NCBI RefSeq assembly: GCF_003334335.1
Contig: NZ_QOWQ01000111.1
Reading direction: 5' to 3' (one strand)
Length of the DNA: 1,316 nt
DNA from: Escherichia coli
Lineage (GTDB): Bacteria; Pseudomonadota; Gammaproteobacteria; Enterobacterales; Enterobacteriaceae
The notes beneath the pieces were generated by a model that was not told the origin of the DNA, did no database searches, and was given only the letters and a program-made list of their open reading frames with translations. Below, in pieces: positions 27 through 1,316 of this stretch. A program made the translations under genes and the position numbers. The number at the start of each line of letters is the position of its first letter. Positions within the stretch are counted from its first letter, which is position 1.

Positions 27-305
27 TTACCTCCAGATGCGTTGCTGGAATGTGCGGGACGGACGCGGTGGGCGTTCAGAGTAAGGAAGCCTGACGGAGA
101 TTATCCAGTGACGATAATCGAGGCTGAGGGTTTTCCTAAACTCATACCCACGTCTGCGGTAGTTCTGAATCAGCCATTCGGCCTGTTCTTCAGTGCATGG
201 GGCGTGCTGGAACCAGTCAGATTTGAATGCATGAGAACGCCGCCCGTGCCTGCTGGCAAAGACGGCTGAATTATCAGAATTGTATAATTTGGTATCGTGC
301 GCCAT
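27..305 (-). CDS. Hypothetical protein, 92 aa from the first ATG (MAHDTKLYNSDNSAVFASRHGRRSHAFKSDW...RIWR); function unknown
   Basis: Longest ORF in the region. The ORF track starts it at TTG 386, but that codon lies inside the hok terminator, so ATG 305..303 is preferred. SD is weak (GAGA) and no family was recognised. Confidence 0.4.
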   Translation of the reverse strand: MAHDTKLYNSDNSAVFASRHGRRSHAFKSDWFQHAPCTEEQAEWLIQNYRRRGYEFRKTLSLDYRHWIISVRLPYSERPPRPSRTFQQRIWR

Positions 306-377: not shown

Positions 378-404
378 AAAAAACAAAACCCGCCGAAGCG
401 GGTT
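378..404 (-). terminator. Rho-independent terminator of the hok transcript
   Basis: Minus-strand reading AACCCGC-UUCG-GCGGGUU (404..387), a GC-rich stem with a UUCG tetraloop, followed by UUGUUUUUU (386..378). No T-run follows on the plus strand, so it is unidirectional for the minus strand. Confidence 0.7.
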
Positions 405-407
405 AAG

Positions 408-416
408 TGCGGGTGC
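408..416 (-). promoter_or_regulatory. 3'-UTR block (fbi-like) complementary to the 5' end of the predicted hok mRNA
   Basis: 9-nt perfect complementarity with 792..800, located immediately 5' of the terminator hairpin in the transcript. Consistent with the fold-back-inhibition pairing described for hok mRNAs. Confidence 0.4.
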
Positions 417-472
417 GTTGAGGATGCCTGACTCATCAGAGGTGGCGAGGGATTTCTCCCCCGCCAGGTCTC

Positions 473-628
473 TTACTCCTCAGGTTCGTAAGCTGTGAAG
501 ACAGTGACCTCCGTCTGGCCGGTTCGGATTCGTACCTCGCAGAGGTCTTTCCTCGTTACCAGTGCCGTCACAATGACGGTAATACAGATGACGATCAGGG
601 CGACTAACATCGCCTTTTGCTGCTTCAT
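473..628 (-). CDS. hok: Hok/Gef-family type I toxin, 51 aa (MKQQKAMLVALIVICITVIVTALVTRKDLCEVRIRTGQTEVTVFTAYEPEE)
   Basis: Manual reverse-complement translation from ATG at 628..626 to TAA at 475..473. SD AAGGAG (643..638) lies 9 nt upstream of the ATG. The protein has the Hok-family hallmarks: ~50 aa, N-terminal hydrophobic helix, conserved LCE motif and C-terminal AYE motif. From memory it is closest to the chromosomal E. coli HokD(RelF)/HokC(Gef) subfamily, differing at a few positions. Confidence 0.9.
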   Translation of the reverse strand: MKQQKAMLVALIVICITVIVTALVTRKDLCEVRIRTGQTEVTVFTAYEPEE

Positions 629-685
629 AGCCTGCTTCTCCTTGCCTTTCGGCGTGTAAGAGGCTAACCTACATGTGACTAGCAT
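473..685 (-). CDS. mok: mok-like regulatory reading frame (70 aa), an in-frame N-terminal extension sharing the hok stop codon
   Basis: ORF-track 70-aa frame starting at ATG 685..683, with SD-like GAGG about 8 nt upstream (697..694 on the plus coordinates). The 19-aa extension MLVTCRLASYTPKGKEKQA is translated across the hok SD. This matches, as I recall, the mok/hok arrangement of chromosomal loci such as mokC/hokC, which share a stop codon. Confidence 0.65.
   Translation of the reverse strand: MLVTCRLASYTPKGKEKQAMKQQKAMLVALIVICITVIVTALVTRKDLCEVRIRTGQTEVTVFTAYEPEE
642..670 (+). promoter_or_regulatory. Putative sok promoter (-35 TTGCCT 642..647, 17-bp spacer, -10 TAACCT 665..670)
   Basis: Hexamers read directly from the sequence with canonical 17-bp spacing. 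The promoter sits inside the mok coding region on the opposite strand, as expected for sok. Confidence 0.45.
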
Positions 686-747
686 GAAATTGGCCTCAGA
701 TTAATGTTAAGCGTCCTGCAAGACGCATAATGTTAACTGGGGCTTTT
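677..747 (+). ncRNA. sok: Putative Sok-like antisense RNA (~70 nt) complementary to the mok translation-initiation region
   Basis: Plus-strand promoter-like TTGCCT-N17-TAACCT (642..670) predicts a start near 675..678. The transcript would be antisense to the mok SD/ATG (683..697). It ends in a long imperfect hairpin (693..743) followed by TTTT (744..747). Size and position match the known Sok RNA layout. Ends are approximate. Confidence 0.55.
693..747 (+). terminator. Putative sok RNA terminator hairpin plus U-tract
   Basis: Imperfect inverted repeat 693..715 / 722..743 with core stem gcgtc/gacgc (711..715 / 722..726) and loop ctgcaa, followed by tttt at 744..747. Confidence 0.45.
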
Positions 748-750
748 CTC

Positions 751-785
751 TGTCTGCCTTACGGTGGCATGCCCGAGGCAGACAG
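751..785 (-). promoter_or_regulatory. Structured hok mRNA leader element: 9-bp inverted repeat (751..759 ctgtctgcc / 777..785 ggcagacag) around a 17-nt loop containing the palindrome ggcatgcc
   Basis: Inverted repeat seen directly. It lies in the predicted 5' leader of the hok transcript, where hok mRNAs carry regulatory stems (tac/ucb region). Confidence 0.5.
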
Positions 786-791
786 CCTCAA

Positions 792-800
792 GCACCCGCA
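792..800 (-). promoter_or_regulatory. 5' leader block (tac-like) perfectly complementary to 408..416
   Basis: Plus 792..800 gcacccgca is the exact reverse complement of plus 408..416 tgcgggtgc. At least 792..797 would be transcribed if +1 is near 797. Confidence 0.4.
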
Positions 801-803
801 GCA

Positions 804-831
804 ATTCTACTTAACTCTCGCTTTACCGCAA
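804..831 (-). promoter_or_regulatory. Putative hok/mok mRNA promoter (-35 TTGCGG 831..826, 16-bp spacer, -10 TAGAAT 809..804; predicted +1 near 797)
   Basis: Minus-strand hexamers read from the sequence; TAGAAT is a 5/6 match to TATAAT. The predicted start gives a ~170-nt leader before the hok ATG, in line with known hok mRNAs. The predicted 5' end reads GGGUGCUUGAGGCUGUCUGCC. Confidence 0.4.
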
Positions 832-843
832 ACCGTTTTTACC

Positions 844-865
844 CGATATGGGAATTCCCATATCG
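844..865. repeat. 22-bp perfect palindrome CGATATGGGAATTCCCATATCG centred on an EcoRI site
   Basis: Read directly from the sequence; it is its own reverse complement. It lies between the stop of the 34-aa ORF (874) and the predicted hok -35 (831), about -47 to -68 from the predicted +1. No T-run follows on either strand, so it is not an obvious terminator. Confidence 0.9.
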
Positions 866-873
866 TAATGAAT

Positions 874-978
874 TCAGTTCCCTAGTCGATCCATCAAAAA
901 CACAACCAGGCAGTAAACACCCACAACAGCAATAACAGCCAGCGCACCTTCCATTGCCAGTGAGATATCATCCGACAC
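874..978 (-). CDS. Candidate small hydrophobic protein, 34 aa with a GTG start (MSDDISLAMEGALAVIAVVGVYCLVVFLMDRLGN)
   Basis: Strong SD AAGGAGG (988..982) followed 4 nt later by GTG 978..976; stop TGA 876..874. One predicted transmembrane segment. An alternative ATG at 980 in another frame gives a 28-aa peptide but has a 2-nt spacer. Found by manual translation. Confidence 0.3.
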   Translation of the reverse strand: MSDDISLAMEGALAVIAVVGVYCLVVFLMDRLGN

Positions 979-1013: not shown

Positions 1014-1097
1014 TTACCCACACCGACAAATAACATATACTAAAAAAGCGATAGCCATAGCAACGCCTGTAATTGCAAATGCTTCAGGCCAGATCAT
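1014..1097 (-). CDS. Candidate small hydrophobic protein, 27 aa (MIWPEAFAITGVAMAIAFLVYVICRCG)
   Basis: Textbook RBS: AGGAGG (1110..1105), 7-nt spacer, ATG 1097..1095. The start codon overlaps the stop of the upstream ORF as ATGA, suggesting translational coupling. One predicted transmembrane segment. Below the ORF-track length threshold; found by manual translation. Confidence 0.35.
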   Translation of the reverse strand: MIWPEAFAITGVAMAIAFLVYVICRCG

Positions 1098-1276
1098 TGG
1101 CGCACCTCCTGCGGCGGTTCTGGTAACGGCATCCAGTCGGTTACATTGCGGCTCTGTGTTTCGAAAAATTCATCACCATTACGGACTACATCAAAAAACT
1201 CACCGTCTCGATATTGCGCATAAAGAACGAATGCGCCATCACATAAAATAATTACGTGCTGACCATCATCCGGCAT
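1094..1276 (-). CDS. Hypothetical protein, C-terminal 60 aa from the first Met; the frame stays open to the right window edge, so the gene may be 5'-truncated
   Basis: ORF-track frame with stop TGA at 1096..1094. Translation upstream of ATG 1276 remains open through 1315 (…PVTPDGWISCSER-MPDDGQ…). Contains a duplicated acidic motif, DGEFFDVV / NGDEFFET. No family recognised. Confidence 0.4.
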   Translation of the reverse strand: MPDDGQHVIILCDGAFVLYAQYRDGEFFDVVRNGDEFFETQSRNVTDWMPLPEPPQEVRQ

Positions 1277-1316
1277 TCGCTCACTACAGCTTATCCAACC
1301 ATCCGGAGTTACCGGA

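What the first reader, a model, noticed from the sequence alone, without database searches (positions are those of the whole stretch)
844..875. 22-bp perfect palindrome with two EcoRI sites just upstream of the hok promoter
CGATATGGGAATTCCCATATCG (844..865) is a perfect dyad of a length typical of dimeric regulator operators, positioned about -47 to -68 from the predicted hok start. A second GAATTC lies 18 bp away (870..875). It could be a protein-binding site controlling hok or the upstream small ORFs, or an RNA hairpin at the 3' end of the upstream transcript (9-bp stem, AATT loop, no U-tract). I did not recognise it as a known operator; it is not a LexA or CRP consensus.
Basis: seen in the sequence. 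Interest (0 to 1): 0.4.

Follow-up and report, generated by a model that had tools for sequence, protein, structure and literature searches.

The report
Leftover hairpin of a deleted KilA-N gene
The perfect 22-bp palindrome upstream of hok is not a hok operator but the last ~37 bases of a deleted phage-defence-type (KilA-N/BstA-like) gene, and that fragment is the gene family's internal hairpin, which is conserved with compensatory base changes across bacterial phyla and which I could not find described.

Summary
In detail: a perfect 22-bp palindrome lies at 844-865, 47-68 bp upstream of the hok mRNA start (797, minus strand), and a second GAATTC lies at 870-875. The window is native lambdoid-prophage DNA, not a construct.

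The interpretation does not hold. 73% of 113 unselected hok/sok loci lack the palindrome. In related E. coli prophages an intact KilA-N gene with a BstA-like C-terminal domain lies divergently next to hok and carries the same 22-mer at codon ~58. The window is collinear with that arrangement but keeps only 844-880, which reads DMGIPIS**IQF against DMGIPISELIQS. The "second EcoRI site" is KilA-N's TTAATTC with one T-to-G change.

The palindrome is the internal hairpin of the KilA-N gene family. The exact 22-mer occurs in 37 species-representative genomes from at least six phyla, in two reading frames. In unselected KilA-N genes the stem covaries: 86% of cells are paired against 67% in shuffles, and 7 of 11 pairs show compensatory changes. 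Rfam and the paper library hold nothing on it, and it is not the published aba element of bstA.

Copies outside KilA-N genes decay, so the window copy is most likely an inert relic at a deletion junction. The function of the hairpin in its home gene is unknown.

The parts
844..865 (.). Perfect 22-bp palindrome. It corresponds to the internal hairpin of KilA-N genes: 9-bp stem plus AATT centre, read on the + strand as (C)GAT ATG GGA ATT CCC ATA TCG = DMGIPIS.
   Evidence: existence, non-chance. (the identical 22-mer lies inside the intact KilA-N CDS of L439, L006 and L163). (the hairpin is conserved with covariation in unselected KilA-N genes).
866..880 (+). Decayed KilA-N coding tail, TAA TGA ATT CAG TTC (**IQF), against GAG TTA ATT CAA TCA (ELIQS) in the intact gene. 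It contains the second GAATTC (870-875).
   Evidence: frame comparison. (window 841-876 aligns to the KilA-N CDS at 88.9%). (the same 36-nt match falls on RefSeq-annotated KilA-N genes, E 2e-3 against 28 Gb). (sister hok loci still read DMGIPIS-G/R-L-I/T-Q-S-V-K).
841..844 (.). Left deletion junction at the base of the hairpin. The hok module ends here, CCCG microhomology is present, and 933W/606R7-type hok loci diverge from this point.
   Evidence: alignment A1. (offset-56 loci carry 18 extra nt, CGGTGGTAATGTTCTCCC, between two CCCG repeats; removing them gives the window's junction).
623..797 (-). hok mRNA 5' region with the sok antisense target. The hok transcript starts at 797.
   Evidence: RF01794, 117.6 bits, full model 1-157.
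473..685 (-). mok/hok reading frame. hok is annotated as hokD, 473-628, in the near-identical genome.
   Evidence: RefSeq annotation of L001.
804..832 (-). Inferred hok promoter: -10 TAGAAT (809-804) and -35-like TTTGCG (832-827) with a 17-nt spacer. It lies wholly inside the hok module, downstream of the palindrome.
   Evidence: Read from the sequence relative to +1 = 797. This is inference only; the consensus scan did not list it because the -35 is weak.
387..404 (-). Intrinsic terminator of the hok transcript.
874..978 (-). 34-aa hydrophobic small ORF (RefSeq WP_001278450). Its stop codon (876-874) overlaps the second GAATTC, and the palindrome begins 8 nt after the stop on this strand. It lies in the 877-1053 stretch that replaces the KilA-N 3' part.
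   Evidence: No PHROG match.
1054..1097 (.). Segment collinear with the region just beyond the stop codon of the intact KilA-N gene. It marks the far side of the lost gene.
   Evidence: 77-80% identity to L006 2959-3002, L439 2185-2228 and L163 1455-1513, in the same order and orientation.

Best explanation
Window 844-880 is a non-coding remnant of a KilA-N-domain gene with a BstA-like C-terminal domain. In related E. coli prophages that gene sits intact between the nin-region genes and hok/sok, transcribed divergently from hok. Compared with the intact arrangement, about 0.5 kb is missing on one side: the spacer, the gene's promoter and its first ~57 codons. About 0.65 kb of the gene's 3' part is missing on the other side and is replaced by 877-1053. 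What survives is the gene's internal hairpin plus five decayed codons. The left breakpoint lies at the base of the hairpin, at a CCCG microhomology. I infer that the palindrome has no dedicated role in hok regulation. It is still perfect because the deletion is recent, not because it is maintained here. Shown: homology, collinearity, absence from most hok loci, and decay of copies outside KilA-N genes. Inferred: absence of function in situ, and deletions stimulated by the hairpin.
For: - Intact arrangement: in L439 a Hok/Gef CDS (683-808, minus) lies next to a KilA-N CDS (1331-2104, plus) that contains the exact 22-mer at 1504. In L163 an Rfam sok hit (74-246, minus) lies next to KilA-N (601-939, plus).
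- Collinearity of the window with L006: 385-809 matches hok/sok, 841-876 matches the KilA-N hairpin region at 88.9%, and 1054-1097 matches the region beyond the KilA-N stop.
- Frame: the window reads DMGIPIS**IQF where the intact gene reads DMGIPISELIQS. Intermediate hok loci keep ~15 KilA-N codons.
- Not part of hok: 83 of 113 unselected hok loci lack the palindrome, and 933W/606R7 diverge at 843/844.
- Orphan copies drift. In the hok context 10 of 30 carry changes, mostly uncompensated, including a 1-nt deletion. In an AAA-ATPase linker the stem has decayed to ~5 pairs in most relatives.
- No KilA-N gene of this subfamily is found in Sakai Sp6 or in L001.
- The gene family is identified: Pfam KilA-N 1.4e-26, PHROG 6287 BstA 2.7e-89 and PADLOC BstA 3.2e-21.
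- Many database homologues are truncated at the hairpin, start at it, or carry internal deletions from it. This fits the hairpin being a breakage hotspot.
Against: - The palindrome is still perfect in 20 of 30 hok-linked copies, and it travels with hok into a different upstream context (PPompW, next to paa/adfO). Weak selection for the orphan is therefore not excluded.
- Hairpin-only copies occur in many unrelated contexts in diverse phyla. That is more than random relic formation would obviously predict.
- No expression or binding data exist for this locus.
- The similarity of the 15-nt tail alone is modest (11 of 19 identities after the palindrome). The case rests on collinearity and the intermediate forms.
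Confidence: 0.8

Rival explanations
1. Functional orphan acting as DNA. The palindrome would be retained, or acquired, as a cis-acting DNA element recognised by KilA-N-domain proteins. It could, for example, act as a decoy or self-marker that protects this prophage's replicating DNA from KilA-N/BstA-type abortive-infection proteins, by analogy with the DNA-based aba element of bstA.
For: - Complementarity in KilA-N genes is almost purely Watson-Crick with no strand bias (284 of 315 core cells; sense G.U 5 against A.C 10). That points to DNA rather than one RNA strand.
- The element is tied to the DNA-binding KilA-N module whatever the C-terminal domain.
- There is a precedent for a DNA-based immunity element inside a defence gene: aba (PMC8585504).
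- The aba elements of BstA homologues other than BTP1 were not mapped.
- Hairpin-only copies sit in phage early genes (RecT, an AAA-ATPase, a 407-aa ORF I judged Rha-like by eye) and in intergenic DNA across phyla.
Against: - The mapped aba lies at the gene start, is not a palindrome, and depends on CCCGCC direct repeats.
- bstA(BTP1) has no hairpin at the homologous position.
- The same 22-mer is shared by very different KilA-N proteins, which conflicts with the cognate specificity reported for aba.
- Orphan copies decay.
- Only 1 of 136 orphans has a KilA-N gene within the fetched flanks.
Confidence: 0.1
2. RNA hairpin serving the upstream transcript. On the minus strand the stem-loop begins 8 nt after the stop codon of the 34-aa ORF. 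It could act as a 3'-end stabiliser, a processing barrier, or an insulator that keeps nin-region read-through from extending the hok mRNA 5' end.
For: - The hairpin is stable on the minus-strand RNA: -14.5 kcal/mol, and 0 of 200 shuffles fold as well.
- It lies directly after a stop codon and just before the hok promoter.
- The hok-plus-palindrome unit is shared by prophages with different upstream genes.
Against: - No U-tract follows it, and the terminator scan finds nothing there.
- 73% of hok loci do without it.
- Its presence is fully explained by descent from the opposite-strand gene.
- Uncompensated variants are tolerated.
Confidence: 0.07
3. Operator for a dimeric regulator controlling hok or the upstream small ORFs.
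For: The dyad is perfect, 22 bp long and centred at -57.5 from the hok start.
Against: - It is absent from most hok loci.
- It lies outside the conserved hok module.
- In its home gene the arms change freely as long as they stay complementary (GGG/CCC to TCA/TGA, CGT/GCG, TCC/GGA and others), and the central 4 nt vary asymmetrically. That is hairpin behaviour, not recognition of a fixed half-site.
Confidence: 0.03

Closest known systems
KilA-N domain genes (Pfam PF04383), here the E. coli prophage gene next to hok (RefSeq WP_000200358, 'KilA-N domain-containing protein')
   Same: Window 844-880 is homologous and collinear with codons ~58-69 of this gene. The 22-mer is identical.
   Different: The window holds only ~37 nt, with two in-frame stop codons and no promoter or start. 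It is a relic, not a gene.
BstA abortive-infection protein and its aba self-immunity element (Owen et al. 2021, PMC8585504)
   Same: The intact neighbour gene matches BstA models (PHROG 6287 at 2.7e-89; PADLOC BstA at 3.2e-21 over the C-terminal domain). In both cases a short nucleic-acid element lies inside a prophage defence-type gene.
   Different: aba is 63 bp at the gene start, has CCCGCC direct repeats and is not a palindrome. bstA(BTP1) lacks the hairpin and is only 27% identical to the hok-adjacent protein. The hairpin also occurs in KilA-N genes with other C-terminal domains. No function has been shown for it.
hok/sok type I toxin-antitoxin loci (Rfam RF01794; hokW/sokW of phage 933W)
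   Same: The window carries a complete hok/sok locus immediately beside the palindrome.
   Different: The palindrome lies outside the conserved module and is absent from 933W and most other hok loci.
Cis-acting DNA sites embedded in the coding sequence of a related gene (lambda ori iterons inside gene O; parS inside spo0J/parB), cited from my own knowledge
   Same: In each case a nucleotide-level element is conserved inside a gene for a DNA-binding protein and constrains the encoded peptide.
   Different: Those sites are sequence-specific duplex sites with a known binder. Here the stem covaries, so structure rather than sequence is kept, and no binder is known.
Quasipalindrome or hairpin-associated mutagenesis and deletion (template switching; deletion endpoints at palindrome bases), cited from my own knowledge
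   Same: Complementarity is Watson-Crick only and symmetric between strands. Deletion endpoints and truncated homologues cluster at the hairpin.
   Different: A purely mutational mechanism should keep orphan copies paired as well, but they decay.

Membership tests
KilA-N domain gene (PF04383) | An open reading frame encoding the KilA-N domain | tested here: not met
   Only 12 codons remain, and two of them are stops (DMGIPIS**IQF). No KilA-N HMM hit is found in L001 or Sakai Sp6.
KilA-N domain gene (PF04383) | Sequence homology and conserved gene order with intact family members (relic status) | tested here: met
   Window 841-876 matches the KilA-N CDS at 88.9% and is collinear with hok on one side and with 1054-1097 on the other. 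Intermediate forms exist.
KilA-N internal hairpin (defined here) | A stem of at least 8-9 bp with a ~4-nt centre at the homologous position, supported by covariation | tested here: met
   On alignment A5, 86.2% of cells are paired against 67.0% in shuffles (0 of 500 reach the observed value), and 33-44% when the register is slid. 7 of 11 pairs show double changes. 32 of 67 segments have a stem of at least 8 bp, against 1 of 67 in each control window. The window copy has the commonest stem sequence.
aba (anti-BstA) element | Position overlapping the bstA start (29 bp upstream plus the first 34 bp) | tested here: not met
   The palindrome lies at codon ~58 of the intact gene (against PMC8585504).
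aba (anti-BstA) element | Terminal CCCGCC direct repeats, or sequence similarity to the 63-bp aba | tested here: not met
   The aba sequence quoted has no resemblance to 844-880. It matches only BTP1-like Salmonella phages.
aba (anti-BstA) element | Suppresses the cognate BstA when present on replicating DNA | not testable with these tools
   This needs plaque or phagemid assays of the kind used by Owen et al.
hok/sok regulatory elements | Conserved across hok/sok loci and covered by the family model | tested here: not met
   The RF01794 match ends at 797. 83 of 113 hok loci lack the palindrome.
Intrinsic (Rho-independent) terminator | A GC-rich stem followed by a T/U-tract | tested here: not met
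   The scan finds only the hok terminator at 387-404. The flanks of 844-865 have no T-run on either strand.
Operator for a dimeric repressor or activator | Sequence-conserved half-sites recognised by a cognate protein | tested here: inconclusive
   Stem sequences covary freely in the home gene, which argues against fixed half-sites.
Any Rfam family | A covariance-model match | tested here: not met
   No family matches the hairpin at E up to 1, either in the window or in 16 KilA-N loci.

The most novel reading that the evidence does not exclude
The conserved palindrome inside canonical KilA-N genes is a functional DNA-level element: a hairpin or cruciform recognised by the KilA-N domain itself. 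It could serve as a self-marker, an immunity element or an autoregulatory site, in the way aba serves BstA. Hairpin-only copies in other phage genes and intergenic regions, including the one upstream of hok, would then be acquired or retained decoys that let a phage escape KilA-N-type abortive-infection proteins.
Probability: 0.2. Interest if true: 0.8.

Novelty: new member of a known kind. Interest (0 to 1): 0.5.

Why it matters
For the window itself, the result removes a tempting but wrong annotation. There is no hok operator here, only the scar of a lost defence-type gene at a mosaic junction. The scar shows how lambdoid nin regions are remodelled, with breakpoints at a hairpin base.

The wider point is that canonical KilA-N genes carry a perfect palindrome with these properties:
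- It is found in phages, plasmids and integrative elements from Proteobacteria, Cyanobacteria, Bacillota, Spirochaetes and Bacteroidota.
- It is kept complementary through many compensatory changes.
- It is read in two different frames.
- It dictates the local peptide (DMGIPIS, RYGNSHIA, RYSDVNIA, RYRDRDIG and others).

KilA-N is a widespread DNA-binding domain that, by my own recollection and Owen et al., is poorly characterised and has no known nucleic-acid target. BstA-type defence is already known to be switched off by a DNA element inside its own gene, through an unknown mechanism. A conserved DNA hairpin within the domain's coding sequence gives a concrete ligand to test.

Tried and rejected
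- Cloning artefact: rejected. The window is in hundreds of complete genomes.
- An autonomous sequence-specific site, inferred from the exact 22-mer in unrelated flanks: largely explained away. Given the peptide DMGIPIS plus perfect pairing, all stem positions are locked and only loop positions 10 and 13 are free, and those are the ones that vary.
- My recollection that L006 was P1 kilA: not supported. The phage hits are E. coli siphophages, so I dropped the label.
- Palindrome = aba: rejected on position and sequence.
- Co-occurrence of orphans with a KilA-N gene nearby: 1 of 136.
- Clean-insertion test on the L073 protein: only the protein itself was found. The same test on an AAA-ATPase family showed a graded, decaying series rather than a clean insertion.
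- The search for related loci with the Bacteroidota alignment in viral contigs: no relatives. I replaced it with look-ups by protein and a metagenome scan.
- Strand assignment from wobble pairs: no bias.
- Literature: the sequence itself, and KilA-N with stem-loop or palindrome, gave nothing relevant. The one paper that mentions KilA-N mRNA structure concerns eukaryotic viruses only.
- Solved structures: only the remote Mbp1 APSES domain (E 0.001), where the G-I-P apex falls in an alignment gap.

Full report
**1. The observation**

The 22-mer CGATATGGGAATTCCCATATCG lies at 844-865 and is a perfect palindrome (I17). It occurs once in the window and never in 200 shuffles. GAATTC occurs only at 852 and 870. 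Rfam's sok/hok model matches 623-797 on the minus strand at 117.6 bits, so the hok mRNA starts at 797 and the palindrome spans -47 to -68. It folds as a 9-bp stem with a 4-nt loop: -14.5 kcal/mol as RNA on either strand and -8.2 as DNA. No T-tract follows it, and the terminator scan reports only the hok terminator at 387-404.

**2. Where the window comes from**

The window is the nin region of a lambdoid prophage. It is 99.9% identical to E. coli SW070917, 95.9% identical to O157:H7 Sakai prophage Sp6, and 597 complete genomes carry at least 80% of it. It is not a construct. All annotated genes run on the minus strand, in this order: DUF551, small ORFs, hokD, a 92-aa ORF, DUF968/ydfU.

**3. 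The palindrome is not part of the hok module**

- Phage hits to the hok region end at 840-847.
- In the alignment of five loci, 933W and 606R7 diverge from the window at 843/844.
- PPompW has a different upstream gene (paa/adfO) and shares only 844 to about 881 beyond hok.
- In an unselected sample of 113 hok loci, found through a conserved hok 5' anchor, 83 have no palindrome. 25 have it at the window's position, of which 19 are exact. 5 have it 18 nt further out.

**4. What it is: a gene relic**

The exact 22-mer was found in at least 120 viral contigs, in a dozen unrelated flanking contexts. Wherever a long ORF spans it, the ORF reads DMGIPIS, and in most cases the ORF is a KilA-N domain protein...FxDELS-(S/R)DMGIPIS-ELIQSFKGG...QGTWVHP (Pfam KilA-N 1.4e-26).

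The window reads DMGIPIS**IQF where the intact gene reads DMGIPISELIQS. hok loci of the offset-56 type still read DMGIPIS-G/R-L-I/T-Q-S-V-K before diverging.

The ancestral arrangement still exists. In E. coli EBJ003 a Hok/Gef gene and a KilA-N gene lie back to back, and the exact palindrome is at codon ~58 of the KilA-N gene. L163 and L006 show the same arrangement.

The window is collinear with L006:

| Window | L006 | Content |
|---|---|---|
| 385-809 | 1358-1762 | hok/sok |
| 841-876 | 2275-2310 (88.9%) | KilA-N hairpin region |
| 1054-1097 | 2959-3002 | just beyond the KilA-N stop |

About 0.5 kb and 0.65 kb of the intact locus are therefore missing on the two sides of the hairpin. The window's left junction equals the offset-56 junction minus 18 nt lying between two CCCG repeats.

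**5. Which gene was lost**

The intact gene matches PHROG 6287, "BstA abortive infection system", at 2.7e-89 over its full length. It matches the PADLOC BstA model over its C-terminal domain at 3.2e-21.

I tested the obvious idea that the palindrome is aba, the DNA element inside bstA that gives self-immunity. It is not.
- aba(BTP1) is a 63-bp stretch across the start codon, with CCCGCC direct repeats.
- The paper mentions no palindrome (PMC8585504).
- bstA(BTP1) has a divergent N-terminal domain, is 27% identical to the hok-adjacent protein, and has no hairpin at the homologous position.
- For the other BstA homologues the authors moved whole loci, so their aba elements remain unmapped.

**6. 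The palindrome is a conserved hairpin of canonical KilA-N genes**

*Spread.* The exact 22-mer is present in 37 of about 100,000 species-representative genomes, where roughly 0.02 would be expected by chance in 298 Gb. These include Nostocales, Oscillatoria, Leptolyngbya, Azospirillum (71% GC), Pseudooceanicola, Nitrosospira, Herbinix, Brachyspira (33% GC), Saprospiraceae/Lewinella, Xenorhabdus and others. About 20 copies lie at the same position of KilA-N genes whose flanks have fully diverged. In the three Saprospiraceae/Lewinella (Bacteroidota) genes that carry it, it is read in another frame, as RYGNSHI.

*Unselected samples.* In 26 proteobacterial-type KilA-N genes the segment has 0-2 changes in 25 of them, while neighbouring codons vary synonymously. 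For the Bacteroidota-type subfamily I fetched DNA chosen by protein only and by peptide motifs outside the segment. The stem there changes sequence but stays paired. Examples:
- CGATACGGGAATTCCCGTATCG
- CGTTATGGGGATTCCCATAACG
- CGATATTCAGATCTGAATATCG
- CGATATTCCAAATGGAATATCG
- TTGAAAACCGATATCGTGATCGCGATATCGGTTTTCAA (17 bp)
- GTGTTCCCTCACATGTGAGGGAACAC

The encoded peptide changes to match: RYGNSRIA, RYGDSHNG, RYSDLNIA, RYSKWNIG, RYRDRDIG, SVPSHVREH.

*Statistics.*
- 32 of 67 unique segments have at least 8 uninterrupted pairs, against 1 of 67 in each flanking control window.
- 22 segments beat all 200 peptide-preserving codon resamplings.
- Mean MFE is -14.6 against -7.0 kcal/mol.
- On a 35-sequence alignment whose register was fixed by the protein alignment, 86.2% of cells pair, against 67.0% in shuffles (0 of 500 reach the observed value) and 33-44% in slid registers.
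- 69 cells are changed on both sides, against 27 expected (0 of 500).
- 7 of 11 pairs show compensatory types.

*Prior description.* Rfam has nothing. I found no paper describing it.

**7. What kind of constraint acts on the hairpin**

Core pairs are 90% Watson-Crick. Wobble pairs are rare and unbiased by strand: sense G.U 5, A.C 10. The central 4 nt vary asymmetrically (AATT, GATT, GATG, AAAT, AATC and others). This indicates intra-strand pairing, with complementarity kept on both strands. That favours a DNA-level explanation over a single-strand RNA structure.

Two readings remain:
- Selection for a DNA hairpin or cruciform, or for a structure used on both strands.
- Self-perpetuation of a quasipalindrome through arm-to-arm template switching. 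This is a known mutational mechanism, cited from my own knowledge.

Copies outside KilA-N genes are not kept paired. hok-linked copies show uncompensated changes and an indel. In an AAA-ATPase (PF13479) linker, the stem is confined to one subclade and has decayed to about 5 pairs in most members. This argues for selection specific to the KilA-N context, but it is not proof.

The identity of the 22-mer across phyla needs no sequence-specific reader. With DMGIPIS fixed and pairing required, T4-A19 and G7-C16 are locked third positions, and only loop positions 10 and 13 are free. Those are exactly the positions that vary.

**8. Consequences for the window**

The orphan has lost the gene's promoter, start, any start-proximal aba and the entire protein. 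No KilA-N gene of this subfamily is found in Sp6 or in the near-identical locus. The most economical reading is an inert relic that still forms a hairpin.

I cannot exclude two other readings. One is an incidental role as an RNA 3' structure for the 34-aa ORF transcript. The other is a residual DNA-level role if KilA-N proteins recognise the hairpin. Many database homologues end at the hairpin, start at it, or have deletions from it. Together with the microhomology junction, this suggests that the hairpin promotes the rearrangements that leave such relics. That last step is inference.

**9. Verdict**

| Item | Assessment |
|---|---|
| Observation | Confirmed |
| Operator interpretation | Not supported |
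| Window feature | Ordinary: a gene scar |
| KilA-N internal palindrome | Appears undescribed, and is the interesting part |

Noticed in passing
L359-L438, L348-L358 (KilA-N genes from metagenomes); alignment A5: In canonical KilA-N genes the peptide at the hairpin alternates in step with the DNA. For example, ...HIA pairs with CGA and ...HNG pairs with CGT. The palindrome dictates the protein sequence, in two reading frames across subfamilies.
   Followed up: yes
P0072, P0086, P0099, P0116, P0089, P0092, P0105, P0110, P0114: Many KilA-N homologues in the protein database stop just after the hairpin, start at it, or carry internal deletions that begin there. One such case is on an 806-kb contig named by its source as Haliscomenobacter sp. 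The hairpin looks like a hotspot for gene breakage, or in some cases for assembly breaks.
   Followed up: partly
L133, L440-L452 (AAA-ATPase PF13479 phage genes); L060 (RecT tail); L076/L130 (2380-aa ORF, 71% GC Azospirillum); L132; L147: The same hairpin, read as DMGIPIS, sits in frame in linkers or tails of unrelated phage early proteins. In the AAA-ATPase family it is limited to one subclade and is decaying. How it got there is unexplained.
   Followed up: partly
L126 (Tolypothrix) 541-576; L143 and L144 (Xenorhabdus beddingii): In Tolypothrix the palindrome is extended to a perfect 36-mer (CCCGTAT-22mer-ATACGGG). Xenorhabdus beddingii carries two orphan copies on different contigs whose flanks are nearly reverse-complementary, which suggests a small repeated element.
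   Followed up: no
L381/L382: A KilA-N gene has a tandem partial duplication at the hairpin (RYSDSRYGNSRNG). This is the kind of product expected from slippage at a palindrome.
   Followed up: no
L349, L351, L355, L358: Bacteroidota-type KilA-N genes lie directly downstream of a relaxase, a Rep3 replication protein, a phage integrase or a P22_AR_N antirepressor gene. They sit on several kinds of mobile element, not only on phages.
   Followed up: no
window 383-464 (minus): A weak Rfam match to isrK (27.1 bits against a gathering score of 50, E 0.0016) covers the hok 3' end and terminator. It is probably driven by the terminator hairpin.
   Followed up: no
window 27-305 (minus): A 92-aa ORF between hok and DUF968/ydfU, where other prophages have rem, matches phrog_1212 (unknown function, 3.9e-37).
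   Followed up: partly
window 874-978 and 1014-1097 (minus): Two very small hydrophobic ORFs (34 and 27 aa) have no PHROG match. The first is annotated in RefSeq and lies in the stretch that replaced the KilA-N 3' part.
   Followed up: partly
window 1094-1316 (minus); L001 7094-7689: The DUF551 gene that runs off the window is annotated as frameshifted with an internal stop in the near-identical genome. Several neighbouring genes there are also pseudogenes, so this prophage region is decaying generally.
   Followed up: no
L439 / L006 flanks of the palindrome: In enterobacterial KilA-N genes an outer helix (GAATTA ... TAATTC) flanks the 22-mer across a small internal loop. The window's second GAATTC derives from the 3' strand of that outer helix.
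   Followed up: no
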